In this document: piece by piece, positions 16,230 to 50,733 of the stretch | Position numbering within the stretch: the stretch's first letter is position 1 | Layout of the letters: every line of letters begins with the position of its first letter | Assembly (NCBI RefSeq): GCF_009914755.1 | Contig: NC_060930.1 | From: the human T2T-CHM13v2.0 reference genome, Homo sapiens | Reading direction: 5' to 3' (one strand) | Length of the DNA stretch: 64,000 nt | The notes under the pieces: generated by a model | Told to the model about the DNA's origin: nothing | Seen by the model: the letters and a program-made list of their open reading frames with translations, nothing else | The model's database searches: none | Translations under genes and position numbers: made by a program

Positions 16230-16240
16230 TAATTGAATCA
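16230..16240 (+). promoter_or_regulatory. DUX4-type motif TAATTGAATCA in the THE1C 5' LTR
   Basis: Exact match to TAAYYBAATCA. Binding at this copy is not shown by sequence. Confidence 0.55.
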
Positions 16241-18159
16241 TGGGGGCAGTTACCCTTATGCTGTTCTCGTGATAGTCAGTGAATTCTCATGAGATCTGAT
16301 GGCGTTATAAGGGGCTTTTCCCCCTTTGCTCAGCACCTCTACTTCCAGCTGTCATGTAAAGAAGTACATATGTGCTTCCCCTTCCTCCATGATTGTAAGT
16401 TTCCTGAGGCCTCCTCAGCCCTGTAGAACTGTGAGTCAATTAAACTTCTCCTTTATAAATTACTCAGTCTCAGGTATTTCTTCATAGCAGCATTAAAACA
16501 TAAATTGATACCACAGAGAGTGGGATGCTGTTGTAAATCACCCCACTGTCTGTGGTATCTGCTGTTGTCCCCACCTGAAAATGTGGAAGCAACTTTGGAA
16601 CTGGGTAATAGGCAGAGGTTGGAAGTTTGGAGGGCTGAGAAGACAGGAAGATGTGGGAAAGTTTGGAATTTCCTAGAGACTTGTTGAGTGGCTTTGACCA
16701 AAATGCTGATAATGATATAGACATGAAGTCCAGGCTGAAGTGGTCTCATATGGAGATGAGGAACTTCTTGGGAGCTGGAGCAAAGGTGAATCTTGCTATA
16801 CTTTAGCAAAGAGACTGGCAGCATTTTTCCCCTGTCCTAGAGATCTGTGGAACTTTGAATTTGAGAGAGATGATTTAGGGTATCTGGTGAAAGATATTTC
16901 TAAGCAGCAAATCATTCAAGAGGTGACAGAGTATAAAAGTTTAGAAAATTTGCAGCCTGACAATGCAGTGGAAAAAGTAAAAAACACTTTCTAGGGAGAA
17001 ATTCAAGCTGGCTACAGAAGTTTGCATAAGTAGCAAGGAGCCAGATGCTAATTGCCAAGACAATGGGGAACATGTCTCCAGAGCATGTCAAGACCATCAT
17101 GGCAGCCACTCCCATCACAGGCCTGGAGTCCTAGAAGAGAAAAATGGTTTTGTGGGCCAGGGCCAGGGCCCTCCCTGCTTTATGCAGCCTTGGAACATAG
17201 TGCCCTGTGTCTCTGCTGCTTTAGCTCTAGCTGCGGCTAAAAGGGGCCAAGGTACAGCTCAGGCCATTGCTTCAGAGGGTGTAAGCCCCAAGACTTGGAG
17301 GCTTACACGTGGGGTTGGGCCTATGGGTACACAGAAGTCAAGAATTGAAGTTTGGGAACCTCTGCCTACATTTCAGAGCATGTATGGAAATGCTTGGATG
17401 TCCAGGAAGAAGTTTGCTGCAGGGGCAGAGCCCTCATGAAGAACCTATGCTAGCACAATGTGGAAGGGAAATGTGGGGTTGCAGTCCCCATATACAGTCT
17501 CCACTGGGGCACTACCTAGTGGAACTGTCAGAAGAGGGCCACCATCGTCCAGACCCCAGAATCATAGCTCCACAGACAGCTTGCACTGTGTGCCTGGAAA
17601 AGCTGCAGACACTCAACACCAGCCCATGAAAGCAGCTGGGAGGGGAGCTATACCCTGCAAAGCCACAGGGGCAGAGCTGCCCAAGGCCATGGGAGCCCAC
17701 CTCTAGCATCAGTGTGACCTGAATATGAGACATGGAGGCAAAAGAGATCATTTTGAAACTTTAATGACTGATGTATTGGATTTCGGATTTGCATGGGGCC
17801 TGTAGCACCTTTGTTTTGGCCAATTTCTTCCATTTGGAACAGGCATATTTACCCAAAGCCTGTACCCCCATTGCTTACAGGGAGTTACTAACTTACTTTT
17901 GATTTTACAGGCTCATAGAGAGAAGTGACTTGCCTTGTCTCAGATGAGACTTTGGACTTGGACTTTAGGGTTAATGCTAGAATGAGTTAAGACTTTGGGG
18001 GACTATTGGAAGGGCATGATTTTGTTTTGAAATGTGAGGACATGAGATTATGAGGGGCTGGGGTGGAATGATATGGTTTGGCTATGTCCCCACCCAAATC
18101 TAATCCTGAATTATAGTTCCCACAATTCCCACATGTTGTGGGAGGGACCCAGTGGGAGG

Positions 18160-18170
18160 TAATTGAATCA
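18160..18170 (+). promoter_or_regulatory. DUX4-type motif TAATTGAATCA in the THE1C 3' LTR
   Basis: Exact match to TAAYYBAATCA, with TATAA downstream at 18236-18240. Confidence 0.55.
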
Positions 18171-21100
18171 TGGTGGCAGTTACCCTCATGTTGTTCTTGT
18201 GATAGTGAATGAGTTCTCACAAGATCTGATGGCTTTATAAGGGGCTTTTCCTCCTTTGCCTGGCACATCTTCTTCCTGCTGCCGTGTGAATAAAGACATG
18301 TTCACTTCCCCTTCCACCATGATTGTAAGTTTTCTGAGGCCTCCTCAGGCCTGCAGAACGGTGAGTCAATTAAACTTCTTTCCTTTAAAAATTATCCAAG
18401 CTCAAGCCTTTCTTTATAGCATGTGAAAATGAGCTAATACAGATACTTCTTTCTTGCTGTTTTTAGAATTATTTGTCTTTTACTTTTGACAGTTTTACTC
18501 TAACATGCATTGGAAATGAGCTTTCTGAGTTGGATCTTTTTGGGATTCTTTGAGCTCCTTGTATTTGGATGTCTGTGTCTCTTGCAAGACTTGGGAAGTT
18601 TTCTGCTATTAATTTGTTAAATATGTTTTCTATTATTTTGCCCACCTTTTCACCTTCTACAGCACCGAAAATTCATGTATTTCTTCACTTTCTGGTGTCT
18701 CATATATCATATATGCTTTCTTCATTCTTTTTCTTTCTCCTTTTTTTGTCAGACAGGTTATTTTCAAGTTCAACGATTATTTTGCTTATGAAGTCTATTG
18801 TTGAAGATGTCTTTTGTGATTTGATTTTATTTATTGAAATCTCTAGTTCCAGTATTTCAGTTTGATTTCTGTTCTGATGATATCTTTCTCGTCTGAATTT
18901 CTCTTTTAGATCATGTATTGTTTTCCTGACTTTTTTGTGTTGTTTAACCTTTGCTCTCTTGTATCTCACTGTTTCTTCAATATTATTATTTTGAATTTTT
19001 TTTCAGTCATGTCATGAATTTCCTTTTTGTTGGGATCATTTAACGAAGAATTATTGTGTTCCTTTGAAATTGTCATGTTTCCTTGCTTTTTCATATTTTC
19101 ATGTTCTTTACATTGAAATTTGTGCATATGGTACAACAGTTGCTTTTTCAAGTTTTATGGATTGATTTTCATAGGGAAAGACTTTTTTATTGTTGTATCT
19201 ATAATGTTGATTCAATAAGATTATTTTGCTTTGAATGTGGGTATGCACAGTAGGTTAGATTTTGTATGATTTGAGGCAGCTGTAATCAATGTCAAGTTTG
19301 TCTGTGTCTTCCTCATTTGCTTGGGCTGCAGTTGTTAGTGGATGCTGTGGTGAGACTTTGCTGGGGACAGGAGCATCAAGAGGGCAGGTCCTTGGGCACA
19401 GGTTTGCCAGTTCTCTGGCCCCCAGGCAGTGTCCACTGACACCAGTGGTAATATGCCTGGGTGAGCCAGTTCTTGGACTTCCAGGCATATTGCTTGTGTG
19501 TTGTCAGTAGCAGTGGTGGGCTTGGTGGACAGGCATGTCCTCAGGCCTTTGAGTGGTGTACATAGTGGGTGTGGTGGTGGTGGTAGTCTGTGCAAGCCAC
19601 CCCCTACTCCCCATGATGGTGCTTGCATGTCATTGCCAGCAGCAGTGGTGGTAAAGGCAACCTTTCCTCAGGCTTCCCTGTTGAGTGCTGCCAGTGGTGG
19701 TAAGGTCAGGTTGATCTGTTGATCTCTAGGCTCCTAGACATTATGCATAGGTGTCACTGCAAGAGGCTGTAGGCAGGGTGATCCTATCCCCCACTGGTAC
19801 ACATGGGCATGGGCTGACTTGGGTAAGGCAGGCTTACCCCTGGATCTCCAGATGGCATGCTCAGACCTTGGAAGTGGTAACAGTTGGTGGTACAGGCTTG
19901 TCCCAGAACCCCCTTAGGGTGCATGCAGGTGTTCTCTGGCCCTACTGCTGGAGGGGGCAGGGTTACTGTCAGTGGCATCAGTCTCAAGCAGGTGGCTCTC
20001 AGGCTGTAGTGAGTGCATTCTATTACTCTCTCTGTCCTGGAGGCAGCCCATTTCCTAGGCTATAGGACACTGCATGGGTGAGAATGCTTGAGAACTAGCC
20101 CCTCCACTCAGTCCAGCTGGCCTTATGTCACTGCAGCTCTCTGGATAAATGTAGGATGATGTCAGTAGGAATTCAATGATGTGGAGATAGAGAGGCTGTT
20201 GGGCCCCAAACAGTATATAGTTTGGTGGGGGCTGGACTCTCCAAATGGCTCCATGCTGCATCTGCTTGGATCTTGGGGCGTGTGTGGGACCCGTAACAAT
20301 GGAATTGTGTAGATTCCAGGAAACTTTACATGCTAGTCTCAGGGCCCACAAGGGCTTAGGAACTCTCCCACAGCTGGGATTGCAGGAGCCTGCAGTGGGG
20401 ATGTCTGTGGAAAAAGATATTTTTCCCACAATGGAGAGTGCCTCCTGGCTCCAAGCCAATCCTGGCCAGGCTGTCTTCTTTGCTTCTTTCTCTTTCCATG
20501 CTTTAGAGGTTCTCTGTGATTGCCCTGCTGCATCCCAATGTTCTCTCTTAGACACTCTATTTGATGTTTGATTATCTACTGACTGTTTTTGCTCCTGCTT
20601 TGTAGAGAAGGTGAGTGCCAGGTGCCACTTGACAGCTATCTTAAAAGGCTACAAGAACCATTTTTTTTAACGTGTGTATTAACATATGCATCCTAAGTTA
20701 TTCTCCCATTTGCATTATTTTCCGTGCATTTAAGCTAATGTGAATTTCCCAGAATGTATTTAGTTGTACTTTGAAGATTTTGCTAGTTTGATTTTCTAAA
20801 CAGAGATTTGCTGAGTGTTGACTTCCTGTCAACTATAACTCATTCAGTAGCAACACTACTACGGTAACACTTTGGACATAACCGTCTTATAGACATCTCA
20901 TATTGTTCTATAATTATTTACATATGTAACGCTACCATGAATGGTAAGGCCTAAAGTATACAAAGCCGTCCTCTTTGTTGATTGTTATGTAATTTCTGTC
21001 TTAGCACTGTGCTTGACTTAGCCACTAAGGAAGTGTTATTTGAAGAGAATTTATAAAAGCATCAATAAGCCAAAGTCCCTTTCTTGTTCTATACTCCTTT

Positions 21101-21327
21101 TTTAAAAACATTTGTCATCAGGTAAGAACTCTTGCCAGCCACTAATGCAAGAAAGCTTTTTCTGGGACCATTTGGCTTTTTCTGTGACAGATAAATTGCC
21201 CCAGCTGTTTCTTAATAGGAAGATTATAAAAATAGTTAAATTGGGAAAACTATCTCATAGTTTTAAGTCTAGTTCCTTCTCCTAAGCTTTTTATATTACA
21301 TATGAACCTTCCTTAAAAAAATTTCTC

Positions 21328-21438
21328 CCATATAACAAACCTGCTCATGTACCCCCTGAATCTAAAACAAAAGTTGAAATTATTTTTAAAAAAGAAAATC
21401 ATAACTAAGAGAAAATATGTTTACTGTTTATTAAGTGG
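21328..21438 (+). mobile_element. Tiny L1 3'-end insertion (L1PA15/16-like) carrying about 45 nt of non-L1 sequence
   Basis: L1 tail aacaaacctgctcatgtaccccctgaatctaaaa. Perfect 13-bp TSD aaaaaaatttctc at 21315-21327 and 21439-21451, at a tt/aaaa site. Confidence 0.8.
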
Positions 21439-22899
21439 AAAAAAATTTCTCTAGATTATCTTCAGGCACCAGAATTATAGTTAAATGTGAAGTATTTTAT
21501 GAATTGTAGTTAGAAGCAGACTTATTGAATGGTTTATATATTTTTTAACAAAAATTATGTAGAATGTGACAAAGTGTTTGAAATATTAAATAATATCATA
21601 TACTTGTATGATTACTTTTTCTTTATGCAGAAATTTTTAATATTATGATATTTCTTTGTTCTAAAAAGTAATTTATCAAAATTAGTACATAAAGACCTGA
21701 CAAGGGTGACTTACACTGTACCTAAATTATATCGCAACAAACTTGATTAAGAAAGGCAGGTGTGGTGAATGGTGATTGATTGTATTTTTTTTTAAAAAAA
21801 AGAAAGAAACGTAATACAAGTGTCTATAAGAATACGGAATACATACAGCTTTTTTTCTTCTTTTCATTTGTTGTGCAGTTCACTAAGTCTTTCATGTCAT
21901 GTTCTGATAAACTGATTGTATCGAATTAGTGATGATACATAGTAAAAATAGGAATAAAAAGGGATAAATATGATGCCTTTTAATTTCTTTGAGTCAGCTC
22001 TGTTCAGTTGTCTTTTGTAATGTAATAATCTGAGGCTGATAAAATTTGCTTTCAATTTCTAAACAAAATTATTGGAAAGGTTCTGCTCTCTTGTGAGCCA
22101 ATCTTGTTGTCCCTAATCATGGGTTTTGTATCCACTGCTCCTAAAAAGTATACCTGCTCACTTTGGTAAATTTTTCAAAGTTTAAGCACTACCTAGGAAA
22201 TGATTTTAGCCTGTGGCTTTTGCCTGGCTGGGCAGTCACTGATGCTTCTCCAACAAATCTGGCTCCTGTATTTTGCCTGGTTGGGCAGAGTTTGATGCTG
22301 TTATAGAAAATCTTTAGAGTCCTAGGAAGAATATTTTCTGTTGATTTTACCCTCACTGGATATTTAAACATTTGTTTTCCATCAATAATGGACATACAGA
22401 TCTCTACTTTTCAATATATACCATATGTTTCACCAGCTTTGATTTCTTTTCTCAAGCCCTGTCTTAATTACTAGCCTAACACAGTGAAATATTGCATTCT
22501 CTCCCAAGAATACTGCTTTTATGCTTCCTCATGTCTATACGTATCTTCTTTCAGAGATGTAAGTATAAATGTAAGTGATTATAGTCCTCATGGATTCCAA
22601 CACACTCTTTGAGATTTTGTTAACACATAAAATTGATTTGGCCCTTGACTGCCCACATCAGGGAAATCTGGTTCCATTGTCCTACAGAAGGCTAAATTGT
22701 AAGGATTATTCTGAGTTGTTTCAGAGATTAACGACACCTCTCCCTGCTCTTCCTTTAAGTTCTCTGCCTCCTCCTTGTCTCAATGCATCATCACTAAGCA
22801 GAGCAGATACTCCTTGGTAGCAGCCAAACAGACATTTTTTCCTATACCAACAACAATTTTCAAGTCACCTCTCCTGAAGAATGCTGCCATACTCTCTAG

Positions 22900-23165
22900 A
22901 AGGAATTGAGTCTGCAGGATCATCATTCATGGTTCAGCTCATTTCCTGCCCTTCAGCATCTTCTCCCACCCTATGACTATTCCCTTTAGAGTTCTTTTAT
23001 ACAGCATGCTCTCTGCATTGCCATTATTTATTTACTTCTTTATCTCCTTAGATATATACCAGGGACTCTTATAGGTGGAGATCATGTCCTATTCATCCCT
23101 GTATCCCCAGCACCTACCCTTGAGTTAGACACATGAAAGTACCCAATAAATATTTGTGATAGGAC
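22900..23165 (+). mobile_element. L2 3'-end fragment
   Basis: catgtcctattcatccctgtatccccagcaccta...caataaatatttgtga. Confidence 0.55.
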
Positions 23166-24342
23166 AGAAGGAAGGAAGGGACTAGAGCAATGCAGACAGA
23201 CACGTAAAGTTTTAAATTTCTAAGTACCGCCAGCTGAGTTAGTCCTTAGAGAATTTAGCTGCTTTTATTCCAGTTCCTGAACCTTGTTCTTTCACATAAT
23301 AAACACTGTATTAATAAACAGATTGTCTGATCAGTATTGTTTTGTTAAGAACTGCTGTGATGATGGAAGTCCAGACTAACAAACGATCTATTTACTTTTC
23401 ATATGTGCTTGAAAAAGATTTCCAGCTTTAGATTGTAATATTGTAGTATAAAATAGGGAAAGTTTCCTATAAGTGGGGTTGACAGCCCCATAATTTAAGA
23501 CAGTGGTACTGAGAAAGTAGTGCAGCTGCAAGGTACAGTTTTTGAACACTAACTAAAGAGATTTCTGAGAACAGAGGAATGCAAGCTCTATCTATTATGA
23601 ATGCTCTTTGTGAAAAGATCAAGAATTTATATTAATGTGGCATCTATTTTATCACCATATCCACCAGTCTGCTCAATCCAATGACCAAGAAAGTGATAAA
23701 TGTGAGTCAAATCACAGGATGTTTCACCAAAGAAATGTGTGAAGATAAATTTTTAAGGCACTTGGGATTTAATCTATGATGATATTGGGTTAGACACTAA
23801 AAGAGCACATTACTTAGGGATCAGAAAATCACATCAACTTTCCTCTAGAATAGACTTGAACAAGTTTATCCATCTGACATTATTCAGATAACCAGAGAAT
23901 ATGTTTAAATAAAGAAATCAAGCTAGTTTCGTAAATACTGTGTTACATTAGGGTGTTGGAGATAGGGAATTGGTTGATTGGACCTTTTTTCAGTTGTTCA
24001 TGTCTCATAAGACTCTGTTTAACACACACTTACACCTTCTTCAGGGCCTTGTGATATTAGAAAATCTTTAAAATAATCAATTCATATTTAGATTCCTTAG
24101 TACCATCCTTCTATGCAAAAAGGAATTATCTTCTAGATTACTACTGTCTATGAAGGATTTTCTTGATAGGGAACGTAGGTAAGGTTCTTTACACATCTCT
24201 AGATGAGCAATTCACAATCAGCTTGAAATGCCTTCAATAATTCACCACAGTGTAGTACTTGAATAATACTAGTAATTTTTCTCTAGATACAAAGTAGCTT
24301 AAGAGTTGAGACTATTGTTTCACTTTGGGTAAAAATATGACA

Positions 24343-24550
24343 GTAACGATAATAACAGACAGTAGATAACACTTACTTGAACGTGTATACTCCTATGCTG
24401 TGGTTTAAATTTATAATCTTATTCTCCCAGCATCCCAATAGAGGAGTTATTGTTATTATTTCCAAGTTTTAGATGAGGAAAATGAAGTTTAGAAAGGTTA
24501 AATAACTTTCCCAGATCATATAGCTAGTAAATGACTGAACTGGGATTTAA
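24343..24550 (-). mobile_element. MIR SINE
   Basis: Core ttttagatgaggaaaatgaagtttagaaaggttaaataactttcccagatcatatagctagtaa. Confidence 0.75.
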
Positions 24551-27104
24551 TAAAGCAATTAATATACGTTAATTTGATAGCATTCCTTTACAAAGAAGGA
24601 ATTCCCCAAAAGAGTGTTACTTACAAAGTAATATTCTAGTTTCTCAAAGATCTCAACCAACAAGGGCCTCTGCCATATATGTCCTTATTGGGAGTTTCAG
24701 TAGATGTTTGTGTCAGACAAATACAAATCATCCTTTTCTTTTTACGATTCTTGTACAAACTCCTCTTTGTAGGCCTTTTCTTCAGTTTACTCATTTTGCT
24801 ATTACCTTGTTACATAAATTCAGCTTCAAGAAACAGACTTGTGAAAAGTAAAATAGATTAATGAGAAAATCATTATTTTTAAATAAGTCATATAATGACA
24901 ATTTTTTAAAATTATGTTATATATATATATCTTTCACAAATACTTATGTACACAACGTTCATACTTGTTGAACTGTTTCCAATACGAAAAAAGGGTAAAA
25001 TGTCAAGATCCAAAATACTAACAGTTTTAGAACTTTTCATCAAAGTTATCACACATATTAGACATAAACCCTTTAGAACTAGTCTCATGGATTCAACATT
25101 TTAGGCAGATAATGGCCATTATCTGTATAAAGCAAAATGGATTAATACTTACTGAGTCTTTTCATCTTTCTTTTCTGGGCACTTGGATCAAAAGATGATT
25201 CACCAATCTATACCCCTCACTCCCTTTGTACCCTGCCTTACAATTCATCTCTAGGAAATTTCCCCTAATTAACTGTACTCTGCTCTAACCAGAGCTTTAT
25301 ACTCCCTCAGTATAGGCCCAACACCTAGGTTATGGGGAGAGAGAGAGAATATAACACAACCTTTGGAAGAAACATACTTTTAAACCAGTATGTGCTTCTG
25401 TTGTAATCATGAGCTCATTGATTTTATGTATGTAAGTATGTATATAACTTGCATGTGATTTTTTGACTCTGTTCTTGAGCATTTGAGCATTGTTGCAAGC
25501 ATGGTCAGATGCTCTACTGCATTGGGCTCCTAGCTAAGCCCCTGCTTATTTGTTAGCTGCTTTGGTGCTTTCTCCTATGCTTCAGAAGTTTCAAGCTAGT
25601 TAGTAAATGGCTCATAGAGAGTTAACTTCATCCCCTTAGAATTCAGGACTAAAATTGACTGCCTTCTTTACTTTCTACTAAATAAAAAAGGATAATTTAT
25701 TAAAAGTCAGGGTAAGTTTCCTACTGAATTATCATGGTGACAACTGACCTTTTCCTTTAAAGTACCATGTTGAATGCATTCTTTTAGAGACAACTCATTT
25801 TAGTTGTTATTACTTCTGTCCTATAAAATCTGGCACATAGGAAACTGACCGAATGGTATATTATATTCAGTGAACATTTAGTTTAACATTTATGTTATAT
25901 GGCTGTGCTCCTTGACTTAATTTTCTGCTCTGTAATATTCTAAATATTTTCTTTCACTTATTGCCTTTGTAGTAGTAAGAAAAAATGTTGCTTTGTGCTT
26001 TTACCCCTTCCAGAGGAGCTTCTGAACATGTCAGACTACATCTCTGTATGTCCTTGGCTAGTGCTCATTATCAAATTGATTTAATGAACTGTTACATTTT
26101 TATATTTTACAGCATTAAATATAAACATCCAAACTACAAGTCGAACCTCAAATATACAGTCCCCTTTGTTACATTTTTTTTTATCCAAGGAATGTGACTT
26201 TCCTTTTGTCCCTTTAGATCTCTCTGTCTTTTCTGTATCAGAGATAGCAGAATGAAACACCTTTTAAAGAGTAAGGGACCTGAAGATTTCCTTCCCTGCC
26301 TAGATGAAGTCTCAAGGTTTCAATTTTAAAGGACAGAAATGGAAGAAGGGAACTCTGGCATAGTGCAGGAAAGGAACAACCATCCTTTGTGAGTATACTG
26401 GGCTGCACATTGCCATCGGGAATACGACTCTTTCTATTAATCCATGGGTGTCCCTCATTCTCAAGCTTACAAAGAAGCTATTCTACTTCCAAGCACTGCA
26501 TCTATATTTTCAAACAGGAACGTTGATAAAGGGGAATGTGAAACGTGCATATGAACATATTTTGCCAGTCATTAATGAGCTCTCCCAAATGCCTAACTCA
26601 GCTACTTATACTTAGATCTCTTTAACCAACATTAGATAAAAAGACACTCAATAATGTAAATATTTAACTGATCCATTGCCACCTGGAACAAAACTGGAGT
26701 CTGTTGATGAGGAAGAAGGAGAAATGGATATGGCTTACTATCTGGTGATTTTTTTACCAGAAAATTATCTCATTCTCTGAAAGCTCCCCATTATATAAAA
26801 TGTGATTAGATAATGATAAGTAATCATGGGATTGTAGAATTTTCCTGTCCAGCTTTTATCCAACTAAAAGACCTAGATGGAAACAGAAACTGTTAGCATT
26901 GTATCAGATATACACAGCCATCCTGCTTCAGTATCGAGGCTCATTCAGCTGCCTGGAGAATGTTCAGGCAAAACACCTTGATGCTTTCTAGATGAGCACG
27001 TTACACCTACATTGGATATTTTCCAGTGCTGGTGTGGATAAGTCCAGCTTGACTGCTAGTATGTAAAAATTACTCTAAAACTAGTGGAAGAGTATCAGCC
27101 ATCA

Positions 27105-27760
27105 CTTCATCCATGTTGCCATAAATGTTATTGCAAATGACAGTATTTTATTCTGTTTTATGACTGAATAGTATTCCACACACAGACACACATTTTCTTT
27201 ATTCATTCATTATTAGATATGCATTTAAATTGATTCCATATCTTGGCTATTTGTGAATACTGCCGTAGTAAACATGGGTGTGTAGATGTCTCTTTGACTT
27301 AAATGTAAAACCTGAAATTATGAAACTACCAGAAAAAGAAAAACAGGAAATCCTTCATGAAATTGGGCTGATCAAGAATTTTTAAATAAGACCTCAAAAT
27401 ACAGGCAATGAAAACCAAAATAGACACATGGAATCATGTCAAATGGAAAAGCTTCTGAACAGCAAAGGAAAAAAAAATGAAGAAACCCACAATGAGATAT
27501 CACTGCATCTCAGTTAGAATGGCTATTATCAAAAAGCCAAAAAATAATTATTGGCAAGGATGCAGAGTAAAGGGAACTCTTATACACTGTTTGTAGAAAT
27601 GAAATTAGTACATCCAAATTCATATATCCAAATTAGTGCTTCCAAATTTCAAATTAGTACATTATGGAAAACAGTAGGGAGATTCCTCAAAATATTAAAA
27701 TATTTCTACCATATGTTCCAACAATCTCATTACTGGGTATATATATATAGAAAGGAAATA
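27105..27760. mobile_element. Old L1M fragment with an internal inversion (minus about 27105-27297, plus about 27297-27760)
   Basis: The plus segment ends at ...gggtatat...aaaggaaat. The reverse complement of the minus segment begins gtcaaagagacatct, which is adjacent in L1. Confidence 0.65.
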
Positions 27761-27794
27761 TAGTTGTAACTTTTTAAAGTACTTCAATTCCTGT

Positions 27795-28090
27795 TCAATT
27801 CAAAACAATGAATGTGTATTGAGGATCTATTATGGGAAAGAAAGACATAGCTCTAGACTATAGAAATTATAGTGACAAGAACATACGTGCTCCCCTCAGT
27901 ATGAGTCTAAACAGGCAATAAAACAAATATATAACTAACCAGAATATAAGGCAGAATATTTAAAAATCTATAAAATTGTAGGGATCAAGAAAGGCTCAAT
28001 GAATACATGGCATCTGTGATAGGTACTGAAGGCTGATCAGGATGCTGGTAATTGGAGACTGACGATAAAAGTCATTTCAAATCAAGGGAA
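27795..28090 (-). mobile_element. L2 fragment
   Basis: attcaaaacaatgaatgtgtattgaggatctattatg... resembles an antisense L2 tail. Confidence 0.45.
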
Positions 28091-29961
28091 TATTTATTTT
28101 ATATATACATACTTACATTTTTGTGATAAGAACACTTAAAATATACTTCTTAAAACAATTTTCAGGTATATACTTATTGTCATTAACTTTACCATAATGC
28201 ACAACAGGTGTCTTGAACTTATTCCTTGTATCTAACAGAAATTTTGTGTCCGTTGACATCTCTCCAGTACCCTTATTCCTCGGTCTCTGGTAACCAACAT
28301 TTTAGTCTCTGCTACTATGAGTTCAACTTTTTTAGTATCTATATATAAGTGAGGTCATGTGGTATTTGTCTTTTTGTGCCTGGATAATTTAACTTAACAT
28401 AATGTCCTTGGGTTCATCCATGTTATCCCAAATGACAGGATTTTCTTTTCTTTTTTAAGGCTGAATAATAGTTCATTGTATATATATATAGTACATTTTC
28501 TTCACCTGTTCATCTGTTGATGGACACATAAGTTGATTCCCTATGTTGGTTGTTGTGAATAATGCTGCAATGAATGTAGTAGTACAGATATTTCTTTGAC
28601 ATAATGATTTTTATTTTCTTTAGATATATACTCAGTAGTAGAATTACTGGATCATAGGCTAGCAACATTTTTTTGAATTTTTTAGAGGCATCTCTGTTTT
28701 CTGTAATGACTCACCAATCCACATTCCACCCAACAGTTTAGAAGGGTTCCCTTTTCTCCATACCCTCACCAACAGTTATCTCTTATCTTCTTGATGATAG
28801 TCATCCTAACAGGTATGAGGTCATACCTCATTGTGGTTTTAATTTACATTTCCCTGATGGTTGGTAATGTTAATGCATTGTTTCATATACCTATTGGCTG
28901 TTTGTATGTCTTCTTTTGAGAAATGTCTGTTCAGGTCCTTTGCCCATTTTTAATCAGGCTGTTTATTTTTTTACTATTGAATTGTTTGACTTTCTTATAT
29001 ATTTTTAATATTAGCCCTTTATCAGGTATATGATTTGAATATATATTCTCCCATTATGCAAGTTATTTCTTCATTCTGTTTATTGTTTCCTTGGCTGTTC
29101 AGAAGCTTTTTAGCTTAGTATAATTCCATTTGACTAGCTTTTCTTTTCTGGCCTGTACTTTGGGATCATATCCAAAAAATAATTGCCAAGACCAATGTCA
29201 TAGAGCTTTCTCCTTTTTTATGTAGCAGTTTTACAGTTTCAGATCTTAAGTTTAAATGTTTTATCCATTTTGAGTTGATTTTTGTATATGGTGTGAGATG
29301 AGTGTCTAATTTCATTCTACATATGAATATTCAGTTTTCCCAGCATCATTCACTGAAGAGATTGTCCTTTTTCTATTGTATATTTTTGTTCTTTTTTGGG
29401 AAAGCAATTGACCATAAATTTGTGGATTTATTTCTGGTTCACTGTTTTCTGATCCACTGGACTATGTCTGTTGTTAGTCCAATACCATACTGTTTTGATT
29501 ATTATAGCCTTGTAGCAGATTTTGAAATCAGATAGTATGATGCATTCAGCTTTTCCCTATTTGTTTAAGATTGCTTTGGCTATTTGAGGTATTTTATAGC
29601 TCTTCACGATTATTAAAACTTTTTCTCTCTCTTTTTCTGTGACAAAATTCATTGGAATTTTGATAGAAATTGTATTGAATCTGTATATTATTTTGAGATA
29701 CTATAGGCATTTTAACAATTTAATTCTTCCAGTCCATGAACCACAGGCATCTTTCTGTTTAGTTGTATATTCTTCAATATCTTTAATCAGAATTTTATAG
29801 TTTTTAATGTATAGTTTTTTCACCTCCTTGGTTAAATGTATTCTTAAGTATTTTGGATTTTTGTAGCTATTGTGAATGGAATTATTCTCTTGATTGTGTG
29901 GCTAGTTCATTGTTAGTGTATAGAAGCACTACTGATTTTTGTGTATTGATTTTGTATCCTT

Positions 29962-30410
29962 TGTGAAAGGAAAATTAATCTTGGGGCCTCCAAATCACTA
30001 AGCTATAGGGAAAATTCAGGCTGGGAAGTGATTAGGGCCAACCTGTCTCCCATTCTATCCAAAGTCACCCCTCTGCTCACTGAGATAAATGGATATCTGA
30101 TTGCCTCCTTTAGAGAGGATAATCAGAAACTCAGAAGAATGCAGCCATTTGTCTGTTATCTACCTATGACATGGAAAGCCCCCTCCTGGCTTCAAGTATC
30201 ACCTTTGCTTCAAGTTGTCCCGCCTCATCATGCATATGTTGATTGATGTCTCATGTCTCCCTAGAATGTATAAAACCGAACTGTGTTCTGACCACCTCGG
30301 GCACATGTCATCAGGAGCTCCTGAGGCTGTGTCACGGATGCATGTGCTCAAATTTGGCAAATAAACTTTCTAAATTAACTGAGACCTGTCTCAGATTTTG
30401 GGGGCTCACA
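29962..30410 (+). mobile_element. MER4A1-like ERV1 solo LTR
   Basis: Termini TGTGAAAGGAAAA...GCTCACA, 4-bp TSD CCTT at 29958-29961 and 30411-30414, and AATAAA at 30359-30364. Confidence 0.88.
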
Positions 30411-30598
30411 CCTTCCACTTTACTTATTTATTCCGACATTTTTCGATGGAGTCTTCAGGGTTTTCTATATATAAGATTATATTGTCTACAAACAGAGATG
30501 GTTTAACTTCTTTCTTTCTAACTTGAATGCCTTTTATTTCCTTTTTTTCTTTCTTTTTTTTCTTTTTTGACCAACTGCTCTGGCAAGGGCTTTCAGTA

Positions 30599-30965
30599 CA
30601 GAGAGTCTCTGACTTGTGATGGTTAACTTACAAAATTTCAATTTAAAGTAGTGTCAAAGCAATGCACAATCAGCACAAACACACTTCAAGTACTCATACA
30701 ACCATTCTATTTTTCACTTTGAGGACTGTTCAGTTAATTATGTGTGATAGTCAGCACTTTATTATAAAATAGGCTTTATTTTAGATGTTTTCTTTCCAAA
30801 TGTAATGTAATCTAATGTAAGTGTTCTGAGCATACTTAAGGTAAACTAGGCTAAACTATGATGTTTGACAGGTTAGATCTATTAAACACATTTTGAACTC
30901 ACAATATTTTCAACTTACAATGGGTTTATTCAAATGTAATCCCATTGTAAGTTGAGGAACATCTG
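30599..30965 (-). mobile_element. MER47A non-autonomous Tigger-family DNA transposon
   Basis: Inverted termini CAGA.../...TCTG, TA duplicated on both sides, about 367 bp. Confidence 0.85.
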
Positions 30966-32806: not shown

Positions 32807-33176
<370 letters not shown>

Positions 33177-34416: not shown

Positions 34417-38075
<3,659 letters not shown>

Positions 38076-38674
38076 GTATTGACTATTGTGAATAGGGTTC
38101 CAGTGAACATGGTGATGCAGGTATCCTTTTGAGATACTGATTTAATTTCCTTTGGACAAATAGTAGTTGGATTGGTGGATTATATTGTAATTCTATTTTT
38201 TGTTTTTTTGAGAAATCACCATACTGCTTTCCATGGCTACACTAATTTGCATTCCTACTAACAGTACATAAACATTCCTTTTTATCCACATTCTCACCAG
38301 CTTCTGGTTTTTTTTTTTTTTTTGTCTTCTTAATCATAGCCATTCTAACTGGAATGAGACGGATCACATTGTAGTTTTTATTTGCATTTCCCTGATGATT
38401 ACATTGAGCATTTTTTTGTATAACTGTTACCCATTTGTATGTCTCCTCCTAAGGCATGTTGGTTCATGTCCTTTGCCCACTTATTACTTGGATTATTTAT
38501 TTTTTATTGTTGCATTGCTTGAGTTTCTTGCATACTCTGGATATTAGTCCATTTATTTAGATAAGTAGTTGGCAAATATATTCTCTCATTCTGTAAGTTA
38601 CCTCTGCCCTCTTGATGGTTTCCTTTGCTATGCAGAATCTTCTTAGTTCAATATAGTCCAATTCAACTATTTTT

Positions 38675-39235
38675 TTGTTTTTTGTTTTCTAACTTTTACT
38701 TTAGCTTCACAGGGTACATATGCAAGTTTATTACATGGATAATTTCTGTGTCACTGCAGTTTGGTATACAAATGATCTTTTCACTGAGGTAGTGAGCACG
38801 GTACCCAATAGGTAGTTGTTCAGGTATTACCCCCTCCTTCTGACCCTACCTGCTATAGTAGTCCCTGGTGTCTATTTTTCCCATCTTGCTGTTCATGTGT
38901 ACTCAATGTTTAGCTTCCACTTATATGTGAAAATGTGTGGTATTTGGTTTTCTGTTCCTGCATTAATTAATTTGCTTAGGTAATGGCCTCTAGCTGCATT
39001 TGCACTGCTGCAAAAGACATGATTTTGTTCTCTTTTTATAGCTGCAATAGTATTCCATGATATATATAATGCATATATTATGTATATAATACATATATTT
39101 TATTTATATATATAATATATATATATATAAATACATCTTCTTTATCCAGTCCACTGTTGATGGGCATCCAGGTTGACTCCATGTATTTGCTATTGTGAAT
39201 AGTGCTTTGATGAACACGTGAGTGCATTTATCTTT
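38675..39235 (-). mobile_element. Nested L1PA15/16-like 3' fragment with TA-rich expansion
   Basis: 3' UTR ttctaacttttactttagcttcacagggtacatatgc, with a TA-rich tract at about 39060-39130. Confidence 0.75.
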
Positions 39236-41133
39236 TTGGTGTTGTTGCCTGTGTTTTTGAGGTCTTTGCCTTAAAATCTTTGCCTAGAAAAATGTCCTGA
39301 AGTGTTTTCTCTGCTTTCTTCTAGTTGTTTCATAGCTTCATGGCTTATATTTAAGTCTTTAATTGATCTTGAGTTGAATTTTGTATATGGAGAGGTAGTG
39401 GGGTCCATTTTCATTCTTCCACATATGGATATACAACTTATTTAACATCATTTACTAATGTGGGTGTCCTTTTCCCAGTGGATGTTCTTGATATCATTGT
39501 TGAACGTCACTTGGCTGTGAATATATGGAATTATTTCTGCATTTGTTATTCTGTTCAATTAGTCTATGTTTGCTTTTATACCAATACTATATTGTTTTGA
39601 TTACTTAATCATTGTAATATATTTTGAAGTCAGGTAGTGTGATCCCTCTAGCTTTGCTCTTTTTCCTCGGGATTGCTTTGGATATTTGGGCTCCTTTTTG
39701 TTTCCATGTGAATTTTAGGATTGTTTCTATTTATACGAAAAATGATATTGGTATTTTAAAAAGGATTGTATTGAATCTGTAGATTAGAGTAATATGATCA
39801 TTTCAATGTTAATTATTCCTATCCATGAGTATGAGATGCCTGTCCATTTATTTGTGTTTTCTTCCATTTTTGTTATCAGTAGTCTGTAGTTGTCCTTGTA
39901 AAGGCCTTTAACCACTGTGGTTACATGTTTTTTTTGGGGGGTAATTTTTGTAGTATTTTAAATGGGATTACCATCTTGATATCTTTCTCAATAAGTTGGT
40001 TATTAGTGTCTAGAAATTCTACAGGGATTTGTATATTGTTTCAGTTTTCTCCAACTTTACTGAGTTTATTAGATCTAAGAGTTTTTGGTGGGCATTAGGT
40101 TTTTCTAGATAAAAGATATCATTTGCCTAAAGGAACAGTTTGACTTCCTCTTTTCCAATTTGGATGCATTTTATTTATTTCTCTTGCCTAATTGCTCTGG
40201 TTAGGACTTCTAGTACTATGTGGAATAAAAATATTAGAGTTAAACTAGGTATCTTTGTCTTGTTCCAGTACCAAGAGGAAAAGCTTTCAGAATTTCTCCA
40301 TTCAGTCTGATGTTAGCAGCTGTGGGAGTATCATATATGGCCTTTATTATGTTGAAGTATGTTCCTTCTATGACTAGTTTATTGAACTTTCCCATTATGA
40401 AAAGATGTTGAATGTAATCAAATGTTTTATCTGCATCTATTGAGATGATCACATGGGTTTTGTCCTTTATTCCATTGGTGTAATGTATTGAACTATCCTT
40501 GCATTTCTGGGATGAATTCTACTTGATCGCAGTGTATTTTCCTTTTGATGCGCTGTGTATTTGGTTTTCTAGCATATTGTTGATTATGTTTGCAACTGTG
40601 TTCATTATGTTTATTGACCTGTAGTTTTATTTATTTGTTACTTCTTTGCTGAATTTGGTAGTAGGGTAATAACTGGTCTCTTAGAACGAATTAGGGAGAA
40701 TTCACTCCTCTTCAGTTGTTTGGAATAGTTTGAGGATAATTTGTGTTATTCTTTATAAGTTTGGTAGAGTTCAACAGTGAAGCCATCCAGTCCTGAACTT
40801 TTTGTGTTGTTAGAAGATGTTTTTATTACTGATACAATTTCATTACTTGTGATTGATCTGTTAAAGTTTTCTATTTCTTTCTGAATCATTTTTGGCAGGT
40901 TGTTTGTGTCCAGGAATTTATTTATCTCCTCGAGATTATCCATTTTGTTAATGTATAGTTGTTCATAATTGTCTGTGATGATCTTTTGTATTTCTATGGT
41001 ATCTGTTGCAATGTCTCCCTTTTCATTTCTGCTTGTATTTATTTGGATATTCTACCTTTGTTTCCTTGGTTAGTCTAGATAACAGATTATCGATTTTGTT
41101 TAGTTTTTTTTTTTTTAGAAAAACTTTTGTTGA

Positions 41134-41427
<294 letters not shown>

Positions 41428-43956
41428 AAAAACTTTCGTTGATGTTTTATATTGTTTATATGAGTTTCTATTTCATCATCAGTTCTGCTTGATCTTTATT
41501 AGTTTTTTTTTTCTATTAAGGGTGAATTTGGTTTATTCTTGTTTTCCTAGTTTGTTTATTGAGCTATATCATTAGATTGTTTGAAATCTTTCTACCTTTT
41601 TATGTAGACTTTTATTACTATAAACTTTCCTTTCAGTACTGCTTTTGCTATATCCCATGTTTTGATATGTTGCGTATTGATTTTTATTTGTTTCAAGACA
41701 TTTTTTAATTTTCTCCCTAATATTTTCTTGACCTAATGCTCATTCAGGCACATATTATTTAATTTGAATGTATTTGTACAGTTTCTAAAGTTCTTCTTTT
41801 TACTGATTTTATATTTTATTCCACTGTGGTCACAGAAGATACTTAATACTAATTTTTTTTTAGATTTTTAAGACTTTTGTGTTCTAACATGGTCAATCCT
41901 GGGGGATATTTCATGTGCTGATAAGAATAACTTATATTCATGGAAGAAATGTTCTGTAAGTGTCTGTTAGGTCCATTTGGTCTATGTTCAGTTTAAATCC
42001 AATGTTTCTTTGTTGATTTTCTGTCTAGATAATCCGTCTAATGCTTAGAGTTGGTTGTTGAAGTTCCCAACTATTAGAGTATTGTAACCTATCTTTCCCC
42101 TTAGATCTAATAATATTTGCTTTGTATATCTGTAGACAATGGTGTTGGGTACATATATGTTTAAAATTGTCCTATCTTCGTGGTGTATTGTACTTTTATC
42201 ATATAGATTGACTTCACTTTTTTTTGACTTAAAGTCTATTTTATCAAAGTATCACTTCTCCTGCTACTTTTCACTTCTATTTGCATTGAATATTTTTTCT
42301 ATACCTTTATTTTCAGTCTATATGTGTCTTTACAGGTGAGATGAGTTTCTTGTAAGCAGCATATAGTGGGGTTATGTTTTTAAATCCATTCAGCTGATCT
42401 ATATCTTTTAAGTGGAAAGTTTAATTTGTTTATATTCAAGGTTGTTATTAATATGTGATGGCTTATTCCTGCCATTTTACTAATTGGTTTCTGGCTGTTT
42501 GTGTGTCTTTCCTTCCTTTCCTTTTATCTATTTGCTTTCTATTGTGATTTGGCAGTTTTCTGTATTGGTAACATTTAAGTCCTTTGTCTTCCTTATTTGT
42601 TTGCTCTACTAGTTCATAATAAACCTTTGTGTATTTCCATAATGGTAGATATCTTCATTTCACTTCTGGTTGTAGGACTCCTTTCAGCATTTCTTGTAGG
42701 GCCAGTCTAATGGTGATGAGTCTCATGAGATTTTGCTTGTCTGGGAAATACTTAATTTCTCTTTATGAAGACTTCCTTTATTGGGTATGTTATTCTTGAC
42801 TGGCAGGTTTTTTCCTTTTTTTAGACTTTGAATAAATCATCCTCTTCTCTCCTGTCCTGTAAGGTTTCTGCTTAGAAATCCACTGTTCATATGGTGAGTG
42901 TTCATTAAAAGTGACCATGGGCTTTTCTCTTGCTATTGCTCTCTTTGCCTTTGACTTTTGACAGTTTTATCGGATATAAGTATTACTACATGTATCTGGG
43001 TGATCTAGTGTTGGGTGCATATGTGTTTAGAATTGTTATATCTTCTTTCTAATTGGTCCCTTTATAATTATATAATGACCTTCTTTGTTTCTTTTTACTG
43101 CAATGTAATATACAGTAGGGAAGATCTTTTTTAATTCTGTCTCTTTGGGGATCTCTGAGCTTCCTGTGTTTGGCTGTCTAAATATCTTTTTAGACTTGAG
43201 AAGTTTTCAGCTATTATTTTGTTAAATTGCTTTTCTCTCCCTTTTGTTCTCTCTTTGCATTTGGGGGTCACTGGAAATTCAAATATTTGTTTCCTTTATC
43301 ATGGTGCCAATGTCACATATTCTTTATTCATTCTTTTTCATTCTGTCATCTTTATTTTTGTCTGACTGGGTTGTTTCAAAAAACCTATTTTCAAGTTCTG
43401 GATTTTTTAATTCTGCTTGACCTAGTTGATTGAAGCTTTCAAATATATTTTGTGTTTTATTCAATGAATTATTCGGTTCTAAAATTTAAGTTCTTTTTAA
43501 TGCTATCTATCTCATTGATACATTTCTCATTCATATCATGAATTACTTTTTCTGATTTCTTTGTATTGTCTATCTGTATTCTATCTCACTGAGCTTTTTT
43601 TAAAATTGATATTTTGAATTCTTTTTCCAGGATTTCATAAATTTATTTTCCATAATAAATTGTTGCTGGAGAATTACTGTGTTTAGTGGCAAAATCTTTC
43701 CTTTTATCATGTATCTTGTGTCCTTAGTTTGATATCTGAACATCTGGTATATCAGTTGCTTTTCCCATTTTTGAAATTTGTTTTTTTAGTAGATGACTTT
43801 TTCCTAAAGATAATTCCATTATTTTGGTTATATTAGGCACATGGTGTTGGTTAGTTTGGTTGATGTTGATCAGATTCTGGGAGCATGCATTGTGTGGTCT
43901 TCTTATGATTTCCTCAGCTCTAAGCAGTATTAGTATTGTTTCTTATTTCCTCCATG

Positions 43957-49496
<5,540 letters not shown>

Positions 49497-50475
49497 TATA
49501 TATCTTACTCTGCTTATTGGGTCACCTTGTTGAAGAATATATTTGTCTCAACTCTAAAAGAATGTTCTTTCATTTTTGTATTAATACAGTGAAAATATTT
49601 CATAAATGTTCCCAAAGGAGTTTTCTTTTTTTCTCAATGTTAATACTTTCTTAATGAATTTGAACAAAAATGTACCAGGAAAATAAAAAAAGTTCTGTGG
49701 ATTTGAGTTCTAATTAGTCTACTTTTCAGAGGATCCATTTCCTTGACTGTGGAATAGTGATAAACTATCTGCTCACCTCATAGGGCTTCTGACACATTTC
49801 TTAATTAATTAGCTAATGATAAAGCCAGTTTTCATTTTTATACTGATTCTGCCATTCTCTCATTTTATGCTTGCTATTGTCTAGTTTTTAGGCCTTTCTG
49901 TGACTTGACTTATCTATCTCACATTCAACCATCTAGTCCAAATTAAAAGTTCTACAAGATGCATCTACATTTCTTCTCATGACTATGTATATGATTCAAT
50001 GCTACCCCTCCCTGAGTTGAGTTGTATCAGGAAGATTCAGTATGATATCACATCTATTCCCCTATAGATGATGAACCTACTACTCTGGGATTGTTTTATA
50101 TCAAAATAAGTACCATGAATTCAAAAGTTTTGGCAAAAGATTGAATTTAACACTGGTATGACTCCTTGCCAAGTCACTGTTAAGACCCCTTGCCAAGTAT
50201 TCTCAGATTCATTTGAGTATTCTCTGCAAGAATGCAGGGAAAGGATTTGGAGCTTCATGAAACAGCAAGAAAGAAAAGTCATTCACCATGATTGTAAAGT
50301 CTTTGAATAAAGGAAATGTTTTTTATTTCCCCCTTGTTCACCAGTGACAGGATGACAGAAGGTGTTAAATATTTCAAATATATTTCGTTTGCCTGAAACT
50401 CTGATATCTTTATATGACATTTTTCTTAGGTAATTTATAGCCAATTTTTTAAAGGAGTTTGTTGTTTATTTGTAG

Positions 50476-50733
50476 GAGCAAGCCAGTTATGATGTGTCAC
50501 GCTATGAAAACATTTTCTACCTGTTCTGGGTTCTGGAGCAGCTTCTTCAAAAGGAAACCGAAGAAGGCAACACTTCAAGTATAGGTCATGATGACCAAGA
50601 AATCAAGAAATTTCTTCAGAAGCATGATGAAACTATTTTCCAACTTTCTGATGCATTTCCTTTGTTTACTTTTTATTTATGGAGAGTGGGCATTCTTTTG
50701 AGCTCAGCACAGATAGAAACTCTTAGAAAATAA
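50476..50733 (+). CDS. MEI4: Terminal coding exon (85 codons plus TAA) of meiotic double-strand break formation protein MEI4
   Basis: Acceptor tttgttgtttatttgtag|GAG, then a non-repeat open frame EQASYDVSRYENIFYLFWVLEQLLQKETEEG...DAFPLFTFYLWRVGILLSSAQIETLRK*. Recognised from memory as the MEI4 C-terminus. Upstream exons were not seen in the window. Confidence 0.92.
   Translation, partial: EQASYDVSRYENIFYLFWVLEQLLQKETEEGNTSSIGHDDQEIKKFLQKHDETIFQLSDAFPLFTFYLWRVGILLSSAQIETLRK

What the first reader, a model, noticed from the sequence alone, without database searches (positions are those of the whole stretch)
18069..50733. THE1C 3' LTR is configured as an alternative first exon in frame with the MEI4 terminal exon
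Seen: the LTR is on the MEI4 strand and carries TAATTGAATCA (18160) and TATAA (18236). It has two in-frame ATGs (18298 gacATG; 18319 ccaccATG) and two donors, ATT|GTAAGT (18325) and ACG|GTGAGT (18361). Both donors are phase 0, like the acceptor at 50476. Splicing would give (MFTSPST)MIVSFLRPPQACRT-EQASYDV...LRK (99 or 106 aa) or (MFTSPST)MI-EQASY... (87 or 94 aa). The 5' LTR is poorer: ACT|GTGAGT, T at Kozak -3, and upstream ATGs at 16354 and 16370. Established: MaLR LTRs act as oocyte, embryo and DUX4-induced promoters and first exons, and the MEI4 N-terminus binds REC114. Inference: a germline or embryo MEI4 C-terminal mini-protein lacking the REC114 interface. Caveats: the ATG and donors are family-wide features, a phase match has a 1-in-3 chance, and the intron would be 32 kb.
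Basis: partly seen in the sequence, partly recalled or inferred. Interest (0 to 1): 0.72.

Follow-up and report, generated by a model that had tools for sequence, protein, structure and literature searches.

The report
Old THE1 repeat in MEI4 intron
An ancient retrovirus-like repeat in the last intron of the meiosis gene MEI4 does carry a start codon and splice signals in frame with the gene's last exon, but thousands of sister copies carry the same signals and nothing I could reach shows that this one is used.

Summary
Every letter and coordinate of the observation checks. The object is a full-length, 2,303-bp THE1-group MaLR element at 16139-18441 on the + strand, flanked by a 5-bp target duplication and nested in an older repeat. 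Its two LTRs differ at 64 of 371 sites (K2P 0.20), which puts insertion at about 45-65 Myr ago. Comparison with print-named copies supports the C subfamily: it is not B-like and it lacks the D-type block. The "alternative first exon" kit is family inheritance. The ATG2-plus-donor-1 16-mer occurs 8,555 times in the genome. 3,431 copies keep both donors in register, and about two thirds of a listed sample are open through donor 2. 11 of 98 sampled copies lie sense in protein-coding genes. The phase match has a one-in-three chance. RefSeq has four MEI4 mRNAs and none starts here. No paper I searched links MEI4 to this LTR. Three letters are copy-specific: G at -1 of donor 2, an in-frame upstream ATG, and an AATAAA between the expected start site and the ATGs. 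The 85-residue exon is the tail of a single helical Mei4 domain. Verdict: an ordinary relic. Use as a promoter is unproven and unlikely.

The parts
16134..16138 (.). target-site duplication GATAC, 5' copy
   Evidence: the same five letters directly precede the 5' LTR and directly follow the 3' LTR
16139..16513 (+). 5' LTR of the THE1-group element (the end is uncertain by about 2 bases)
   Evidence: aligns with the 3' LTR over 371 sites at 82.7% identity
16514..18068 (+). internal region of the element (its frames were not read; naming did not need it)
   Evidence: it lies between the two LTRs; the whole element is 2,303 bp
18069..18441 (+). 3' LTR, 373 bp, TG...CA ends, 2 CpG left
18442..18446 (.). 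target-site duplication GATAC, 3' copy
18160..18170 (+). TAATTGAATCA, a double-homeobox-type motif (the link to DUX4 is recalled, not shown by a call)
   Evidence: with its 3' anchor it occurs 10,428 times in the genome against a control of 16
18236..18240 (+). TATAA box; the expected start site is near 18265
   Evidence: the RefSeq 5' bound of WNT5A lies in a kin LTR at the position that maps to window 18265
18289..18294 (+). copy-specific AATAAA hexamer between the expected start site and ATG1
   Evidence: present at this spacing in 2 of 8,555 anchor-bearing copies
18298..18360 (+). open frame of 21 codons in the LTR, from ATG1 (18298) through ATG2 (18319) to donor 2
18325..18330 (+). donor 1, ATT|GTAAGT
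   Evidence: family-wide
18361..18366 (+). donor 2, ACG|GTGAGT; the G at -1 is copy-specific
   Evidence: the ACG form occurs 70 times against 8,862 for the ACT form
18369..18374 (+). ATTAAA, the family's own polyadenylation-type hexamer, 3 bases after donor 2 (a donor-PAS pair)
   Evidence: the donor-PAS architecture of LTRs is described in PMC12999487
50476..50733 (+). coding part of the MEI4 terminal exon (the exon runs to 54425), 85 codons plus stop, phase-0 acceptor
   Evidence: RefSeq table; Pfam Mei4 PF13971 E=7.1e-27, profile positions 268-339 of 340

Best explanation
This is an ordinary fossil. A full-length THE1-group (most likely THE1C) ERVL-MaLR retrotransposon inserted about 45-65 million years ago, in the sense orientation, into an older interspersed repeat inside the 94-kb last intron of MEI4. 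Its 3' LTR still carries the generic kit that this family brought to every insertion site: a double-homeobox-type motif, a TATA box, a short ATG-initiated frame, two 5' splice sites, and a polyadenylation hexamer next to the second donor. The frame agreement with MEI4's last exon is a one-in-three coincidence. The LTR is most likely silent in most tissues. At most it fires sporadically where MaLR LTRs are derepressed. Shown: the anatomy, the age, the family-wide nature of the signals, and the absence from annotation. Inferred: silence.
For: Anatomy: paired LTRs, a 5-bp duplication and a 2,303-bp length.

Age: 64 differences in 371 sites, K2P 0.200 (0.191 without CpG sites), which gives 45 Myr at 2.2e-9 and 67 Myr at 1.5e-9 per site per year (the rates are recalled). 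Print places THE1D/C/B/A after the tarsier split (under 70 Myr) and active until about 45 Myr ago.

Family: 8,044 first-look kin, the best at 85% identity. Kin LTRs sit exactly where papers place the THE1D-WNT5A, THE1B-HEY1, THE1B-CRH, THE1B-CSF1R and a THE1C locus.

Family-wide kit: 8,555 copies of the ATG2-donor-1 16-mer. 3,431 copies also have GTGAGT exactly 30 nt on. 706 of those 3,431 have an in-frame TGA. 66 of the 98 listed copies are open through donor 2 (my count by eye). 11 of 98 lie sense inside protein-coding genes, which extrapolates to roughly 385 such copies genome-wide.

No use recorded: 0 of 4 RefSeq MEI4 mRNAs start in the window. Among 3 short MEI4-tail proteins in named sources, none is from a primate and none has an LTR-derived head.

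Against: This copy keeps every element of the kit intact after about 10% decay per lineage. First, G at -1 of donor 2 (70 copies against 8,862). Second, an in-frame upstream ATG (495 of 8,555). Third, A at -3 of ATG2. The stop codon lies in the last exon, so a chimeric mRNA should escape nonsense-mediated decay (inference). A kin LTR at WNT5A marks a RefSeq 5' gene bound at the position equivalent to 18265, so such LTRs do start annotated transcripts. I could not consult RNA-seq, CAGE or ChIP data. Supplementary tables were closed, for example the list of 238 DUX4-activated promoters in PMC3836709. RefSeq is poor in oocyte and embryo isoforms.
Confidence: 0.85

Rival explanations
1. The 3' LTR is a tissue-restricted promoter (oocyte, cleavage embryo, testis or DUX4-driven). 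Its transcript starts near 18265 and splices from 18361 or 18325 to 50476. It encodes an 87-106-residue protein made of a short LTR-derived head and the last 85 residues of MEI4, without the REC114-binding N-terminus.
For: The configuration is verified. There is no upstream ATG between the expected start and ATG1. Donor 2 matches the splice consensus better than the family norm. There are precedents for MaLR-gene chimeras with LTR-encoded heads: MLT1E1A-NT5C1B, with 17 LTR-encoded residues, and THE1B-HEY1. 32.9% of THE1C copies are bound by DUX4. ERVL-MaLRs supply 41.7% of TE-derived start sites in human oocyte isoforms.
Against: No annotated transcript exists and there is no mention in print (and six main texts). 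Base rates of use are 0.4-3.6%. A copy-specific AATAAA sits about 24 nt after the expected start, and ATTAAA sits 3 nt after donor 2. Promoter-proximal PAS recognition is reported to end LTR transcripts early. The 85 residues are the tail of one HEAT-like domain. Constructs of that helical domain could not be made soluble. The fragment alone folds with low confidence (pLDDT 62.5, pTM 0.40).
Confidence: 0.05
2. The LTR matters to MEI4 in another way. It could act as an enhancer, or as a sense-strand polyadenylation site (AATAAA 18289, ATTAAA 18369, and the same hexamer type in the 5' LTR) that ends some MEI4 pre-mRNAs inside the last intron and lowers full-length output.
For: Two PAS-type hexamers lie on the gene's strand in the 3' LTR. 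The AATAAA is rare in the family (2 of 8,555). Sense copies are depleted in genes, 11 sense against 27 antisense of 98, as expected if sense LTR signals are harmful. THE1B and THE1C copies can score as enhancers in STARR-seq.
Against: No RefSeq MEI4 transcript ends in the element. The two strong donors next to the hexamers would be expected to suppress cleavage (recalled U1 effect, not tested). There is no upstream acceptor to define a terminal exon. The annotated MPRA fragment nearby (19825-19994) lies outside the LTR.
Confidence: 0.05

Closest known systems
DUX4-activated MaLR-gene chimeras (THE1B-HEY1, MLT1B-PPCS, MLT1E1A-NT5C1B; PMC3836709)
   Same: A MaLR LTR on the gene's strand, with a TATA box and LTR-internal donors, splicing to a downstream coding exon. 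For NT5C1B two alternative donors are used and one product has an LTR-encoded head.
   Different: Those were shown by RNA-seq, RT-PCR, 5' RACE and sequencing, and they lie upstream of the gene. The MEI4 LTR lies deep in the last intron and has no transcript evidence. It would leave only 85 of 385 residues.
THE1D-WNT5A and THE1B-CSF1R LTR-driven transcripts of Hodgkin lymphoma (PMC6558280)
   Same: The same LTR group. Kin LTRs were found at the published places. The WNT5A RefSeq 5' bound maps to the position equal to window 18265.
   Different: Identity to the MEI4 LTR is only 76.4% (WNT5A) and 72.6% (CSF1R). The B-type LTRs lack the GTAAGT donor block. Those promoters are used; this one is not known to be.
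Mouse intronic or upstream MaLR (MT, ORR1) LTR first exons in oocytes, including truncated-protein isoforms (PMC5538554)
   Same: The 'plug-and-play' platform of promoter, donor and sometimes AUG supplied by a MaLR LTR. Examples yield N-terminally truncated proteins.
   Different: These are rodent families and are backed by oocyte transcriptomes. The co-option frequency is 3.6% even for the best family.
RefSeq model XM_054354001.1 of MEI4
   Same: An N-terminally shortened MEI4 from an alternative first exon. Its coding part starts 294 nt into the reference coding sequence, so it lacks the first 98 residues, including the REC114-binding helix.
   Different: It starts about 172 kb upstream of the THE1 element at another first exon and keeps 287 residues. 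It is a Gnomon prediction.

Membership tests
ERVL-MaLR, THE1 group | Two LTRs of about 350-380 bp with TG...CA ends around a short internal region, about 2.3 kb in all (size recalled from the first descriptions) | tested here: met
   LTRs of 375 and 373 bp; the element is 2,303 bp
ERVL-MaLR, THE1 group | 5-bp target-site duplication | tested here: met
   GATAC on both sides
ERVL-MaLR, THE1 group | Sequence kinship with copies that print names THE1 | tested here: met
   A single kin LTR was found at each published place: WNT5A THE1D 76.4%, HEY1 THE1B 74.2%, CRH THE1B 72.7%, CSF1R THE1B 72.6%, chr2 THE1C 70.3%. There are 8,044 first-look kin in the genome.
THE1C subfamily | LTR states that set C apart from B/A and from D | tested here: inconclusive
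   Both MEI4 LTRs share the GTAAGTTTCC block and an 8-column block with the C- and D-named anchors; the 3 B-named anchors lack both. The MEI4 LTRs lack the extra 6-bp block shared by the two D-labelled anchors and match the C-named anchor there. Both states are abundant, 1,117 against 451 exact matches. This rests on one C anchor, placed via recalled hg38 gene bounds, and on two D anchors, one of whose labels is recalled. No repeat library with names was available.
THE1 group, age class | Simian-specific, under 70 Myr old, active until about 45 Myr ago (PMC10735291) | tested here: met
   LTR-LTR K2P 0.200 gives 45-67 Myr at 2.2-1.5e-9. Presence or absence in other primates was not testable here.
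LTR-initiated chimeric transcript / co-opted LTR first exon | Sense orientation, with an LTR donor that can join a downstream host exon with the reading frame kept | tested here: met
LTR-initiated chimeric transcript / co-opted LTR first exon | Transcription start inside the LTR | not testable with these tools
   No CAGE, RACE or RNA-seq access. No RefSeq transcript starts in the window.
LTR-initiated chimeric transcript / co-opted LTR first exon | An observed LTR-to-exon splice junction | not testable with these tools
   Absent from the 4 RefSeq MEI4 mRNAs. MEI4 occurs 0 times in six main texts. Supplements were closed.
Mei4 protein family (PF13971) | A match to the Mei4 profile | tested here: met
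   The 85-residue exon scores E=7.1e-27 but covers only profile positions 268-339 of 340.

The most novel reading that the evidence does not exclude
In a narrow window (oocyte, cleavage embryo, male germ cells or DUX4-positive cells) this THE1C LTR fires and splices to MEI4's last exon. The product would be an 87-106-residue tail of the MEI4 HEAT-like domain, or merely a stable non-coding chimeric RNA. Because it lacks the REC114-binding helix, it could compete for whatever the tail of MEI4 contacts. This would be a simian-specific modifier of the meiotic break machinery.
Probability: 0.03. Interest if true: 0.55.

Novelty: already known. Interest (0 to 1): 0.12.

Why it matters
If the LTR were used, it would be a primate-specific, retroelement-born isoform of a gene needed for meiotic double-strand breaks and linked in print to early embryo arrest. 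As it stands, the value of the result is a calibration. A perfect-looking "promoter + ATG + donor in frame" arrangement in a MaLR LTR is the default state of thousands of copies. By my extrapolation (11 of 98 sampled, times 3,431), several hundred of them lie sense inside genes. Sequence configuration alone should therefore not be scored as evidence of an isoform.

Tried and rejected
1. Subfamily naming from print. PMC10735291 gives an order and ages but no diagnostic letters for THE1C in the text I read, and its figures and supplement are not held. I fell back on print-named anchor copies. Whole-LTR identities to single anchors (70-76%) were too noisy to rank subfamilies, so only block-level states were used.

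2. A stand-alone fold of the 85-residue exon gave low confidence. I therefore did not run fold search, because a poor model gives meaningless matches.

3. The short-protein search found 3 proteins. All are non-primate partial models. 17 sample-only candidates were left out by the tool, so the blank means little.

4. A splice-strength score such as MaxEnt could not be computed, as no model tables were available. I only counted matches to the recalled 9-base donor consensus: donor 1 matches 7 of 9, donor 2 matches 8 of 9, and the family norm ACT|GTGAGT matches 7 of 9.

5. A PRDM9-type 13-mer was considered. The LTR stretch read by eye misses it by one letter, so I dropped it.

6. I did not read frames of the element's internal region, because naming did not need it.

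7. The joined chimeric protein was not typed, folded or searched. Each piece was translated apart.

What I saw of each paper:
- PMC3836709: passages plus section 9.
- Preprints 10.1101/2023.01.11.523614 and 10.1101/2022.12.16.520760: passages.
- PMC5538554, PMC10616205, PMC13233917, PMC6558280, PMC11925782, PMC12984818, PMC12884080, PMC10038261 and 10.1101/2022.12.16.520732: passages.
- PMC12999487: one passage plus section 9.
- PMC10735291: passages plus section 10.
- All other titles: search listings only.

Recalled, from no call:
- the DUX4 site consensus;
- the U1/donor consensus;
- the neutral substitution rates;
- the 2.3-kb size of THE1;
- the L1-like look of the host repeat;
- the hg38 bounds of ERBB4 and IKZF2;
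- the THE1D label of the IL2RB LTR;
- suppression of cleavage by nearby donors.
Full report
**The observation.** Reading 15900-18600 and 50380-50800 confirms every quoted letter at its quoted place.
- The LTR starts at 18069.
- TAATTGAATCA is at 18160 and TATAA at 18236.
- ATG is at 18298 and 18319, 21 nt apart.
- ATT|GTAAGT is at 18325 and ACG|GTGAGT at 18361.
- The acceptor is at 50476 and the stop at 50731-50733.

Translating the two pieces apart gives 21 residues without a stop for 18298-18360 and 85 residues plus a stop for 50476-50733. The phases agree, and the predicted lengths (106, 99, 94, 87) are right by arithmetic. Two things were missed. An AATAAA lies at 18289-18294, between the TATA box and the first ATG. 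ATTAAA lies at 18369-18374, three bases after donor 2.

**What the object is.** The two LTRs (16139-about 16513 and 18069-18441) bracket a 1.55-kb internal region. The five letters GATAC flank the whole on both sides (16134-16138 and 18442-18446). It is therefore one complete insertion of 2,303 bp on the + strand, the strand of MEI4. The 254 bases upstream of it are themselves a high-copy repeat: 2,059 first-look candidates, with the best kin at only 73-79% identity. This repeat is older than the element, whose best kin reach 85%. I recall it as L1-like, but no call names it. I did not read the frames of the internal region, because naming did not need it.

**Age.** The LTRs align over 371 sites with 64 differences (43 transitions, 21 transversions) and 7 gap columns. 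The p-distance is 0.173 and K2P is 0.200, or 0.191 without CpG-context sites. At recalled neutral rates of 2.2e-9 and 1.5e-9 per site per year, this gives 45 and 67 Myr. A rate of 1e-9 would give 100 Myr, which print excludes. PMC10735291 finds THE1D, C, B and A only in simians, hence after the tarsier split (under 70 Myr), with MaLR activity until about 45 Myr ago (passages and section 10 read). I put the insertion at about 45-65 Myr ago.

**Family.** No named repeat library was at hand, so I tied the letters to names through loci that papers name. A single kin LTR lies at each published place:

| Published place | Locus | Identity to the MEI4 3' LTR | Source calls |
|---|---|---|---|
| THE1D about 20 kb upstream of WNT5A | L008 | 76.4% | 44, 50 |
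| THE1B about 40 kb upstream of HEY1 | L007 | 74.2% | 12, 50 |
| THE1B at CRH | L006 | 72.7% | 10 (title and abstract), 50 |
| THE1B at CSF1R | L005 | 72.6% | 11, 44, 50 |
| THE1C LTR in the gene desert beyond ERBB4 | L013 | 70.3% | 53, 54-56 |

The THE1C place was derived from recalled hg38 gene bounds. In the alignment of these copies, both MEI4 LTRs share two features with the D- and C-named copies: the block that holds donor 1 (GTAAGTTTCC) and an 8-column block. The three B-named copies lack both. Just upstream of ATG2, the two D-labelled copies share an extra 6-bp block that the MEI4 LTRs and the C-named copy lack. These are the WNT5A copy and the LTR holding the IL2RB 5' bound; the label of the latter is recalled. 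Both states are subfamily-sized in the genome: 1,117 exact matches for the short state and 451 for the long state. So "THE1" is established. "Not B or A" is well supported. "C rather than D" is supported but rests on few anchors.

**Is the configuration special?** No. Exact genome counts, with reversed-pattern controls of 0-16:
- The ATG2-plus-donor-1 16-mer occurs 8,555 times.
- The same anchor with GTGAGT exactly 30 nt on, that is both donors in the same register, occurs 3,431 times.
- The homeobox-type motif with its anchor occurs 10,428 times.
- Of the 3,431, 706 carry an in-frame TGA one codon before donor 2.
- In the 98 rows that one search lists, I counted by eye 32 with an in-frame stop and 66 open.
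- Of those 98 (chr1, 0.7-88 Mb), 11 lie on the sense strand inside a protein-coding gene, 27 lie antisense only, and 60 lie outside genes. Gene bounds cover 55.5% of that span.

Scaled to 3,431, roughly 385 copies genome-wide sit sense in a gene with the same kit. A third of them would match the phase of the next coding exon by chance.

**What is specific to this copy?** There are three letter states.
1. G at -1 of donor 2. The ACG form has 70 matches and the ACT form 8,862. 0 of the 98 listed rows have G. This brings the donor closer to the recalled consensus. At 0.8%, though, it is about what neutral decay gives.
2. The upstream in-frame ATG, found in 495 of 8,555 copies.
3. AATAAA about 22 nt before ATG2, found in 2 of 8,555 copies.

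The third does not. PMC12999487 (section 9 read) reports that donor-PAS pairs are typical of LTRs and that the cleavage machinery recognises such a site. [quoted passage not shown]

**Where would transcription start?** The RefSeq 5' bound of WNT5A falls inside its THE1D LTR at the position that maps to window 18265, which is 29 nt after the TATA box. The IL2RB bound maps to 18201, upstream of the TATA box, so annotated bounds are not uniform. No ATG lies between 18255 and 18297.

**Evidence of use.** RefSeq holds four MEI4 mRNAs. None starts in the window. The exon before the last ends at chr6:79006417, so the intron is 94 kb. Searches for MEI4 with THE1 gave 2 papers, both on hotspot motifs. 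MEI4 with LTR gave 30 papers, of which 25 were listed. None is on this LTR by title or abstract, and of the three I opened none concerns it. MEI4 occurs 0 times in the main texts of PMC3836709, PMC5538554, PMC10616205, PMC13233917, PMC12999487 and PMC6558280.

Base rates from print are low:
- 9,874 THE1C copies, of which 32.9% are DUX4-bound and 43 activated.
- 238 new DUX4-activated gene promoters in all, 144 of them in repeats.
- 214 chimeric of 12,871 intragenic LTR-gene pairs.
- 3.6% co-option for mouse MTA.

**The protein side.** The 85 residues match Pfam Mei4 at E=7.1e-27 but cover only profile positions 268-339 of 340. MEI4 orthologues are modelled as flexible N-terminal helices that bind REC114, followed by one domain of four HEAT-like repeats. 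MEI4 1-43 suffices for REC114 binding, and constructs of the helical domain could not be made soluble. The exon is well conserved in three non-primate partial proteins (69-82% identity). Folded alone with that 4-row alignment, it gives five helices at low confidence (pLDDT 62.5, pTM 0.40). A free-standing tail of one repeat domain is a poor candidate for a stable protein. This is an inference.

**Verdict.** The reading as a configured first exon is literally true but describes the default state of the family. The mini-protein is unsupported. I take the locus to be an ordinary THE1C-type relic (confidence 0.85). I give 0.05 to real LTR-to-exon-5 transcripts in some tissue and 0.05 to another cis effect (enhancer or intronic termination). 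Only transcript-level data can settle the matter.

Noticed in passing
window 18289-18294: A canonical AATAAA hexamer lies between the LTR's expected start site and its ATGs. At this spacing it occurs in only 2 of 8,555 anchor-bearing copies genome-wide. The other copy is also on chr6.
   Followed up: partly
window 19825-19994 and 19910: RefSeq lists an MPRA reporter fragment and a 'Neanderthal adaptively introgressed variant' (rs13219006) 1.4 kb downstream of the LTR, outside the element.
   Followed up: no
chr6:78894180-78894237, outside the window: The Gnomon model XM_054354001.1 gives MEI4 an alternative first exon and a coding start 294 nt into the reference coding sequence. That is a predicted 287-residue isoform lacking the REC114-binding N-terminus.
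   Followed up: no
a MEI4 intron, place not looked up: PMC12884080 lists MEI4 among genes with a near-complete HERVK locus in an intron. PMC11925782 names a HERVH locus 'downstream to MEI4'. I did not locate or fetch either.
   Followed up: no
window 15880-16133 and 18447-18600: The THE1 element is nested in an older high-copy repeat: 2,059 first-look kin, the best at 73-79% identity. It looks L1-like from recall. The pieces were not joined.
   Followed up: partly
window 16146-18257 in the repeat-mask table: The reference's soft-mask table covers the element only in patches and stops at 18257. The half of the 3' LTR that holds the ATGs and donors is not listed as masked in any stretch of 100 bases or more.
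   Followed up: no
L008:9281-9653 and L016:4795-5171: The RefSeq 5' gene bounds of WNT5A and IL2RB both fall inside THE1-type LTRs. Such LTR starts are therefore already part of the reference annotation for other genes.
   Followed up: partly
genome-wide sample, chr1 0.7-88 Mb: Copies with the full ATG-and-donor kit are depleted on the sense strand of genes: 11 sense against 27 antisense of 98.
   Followed up: partly
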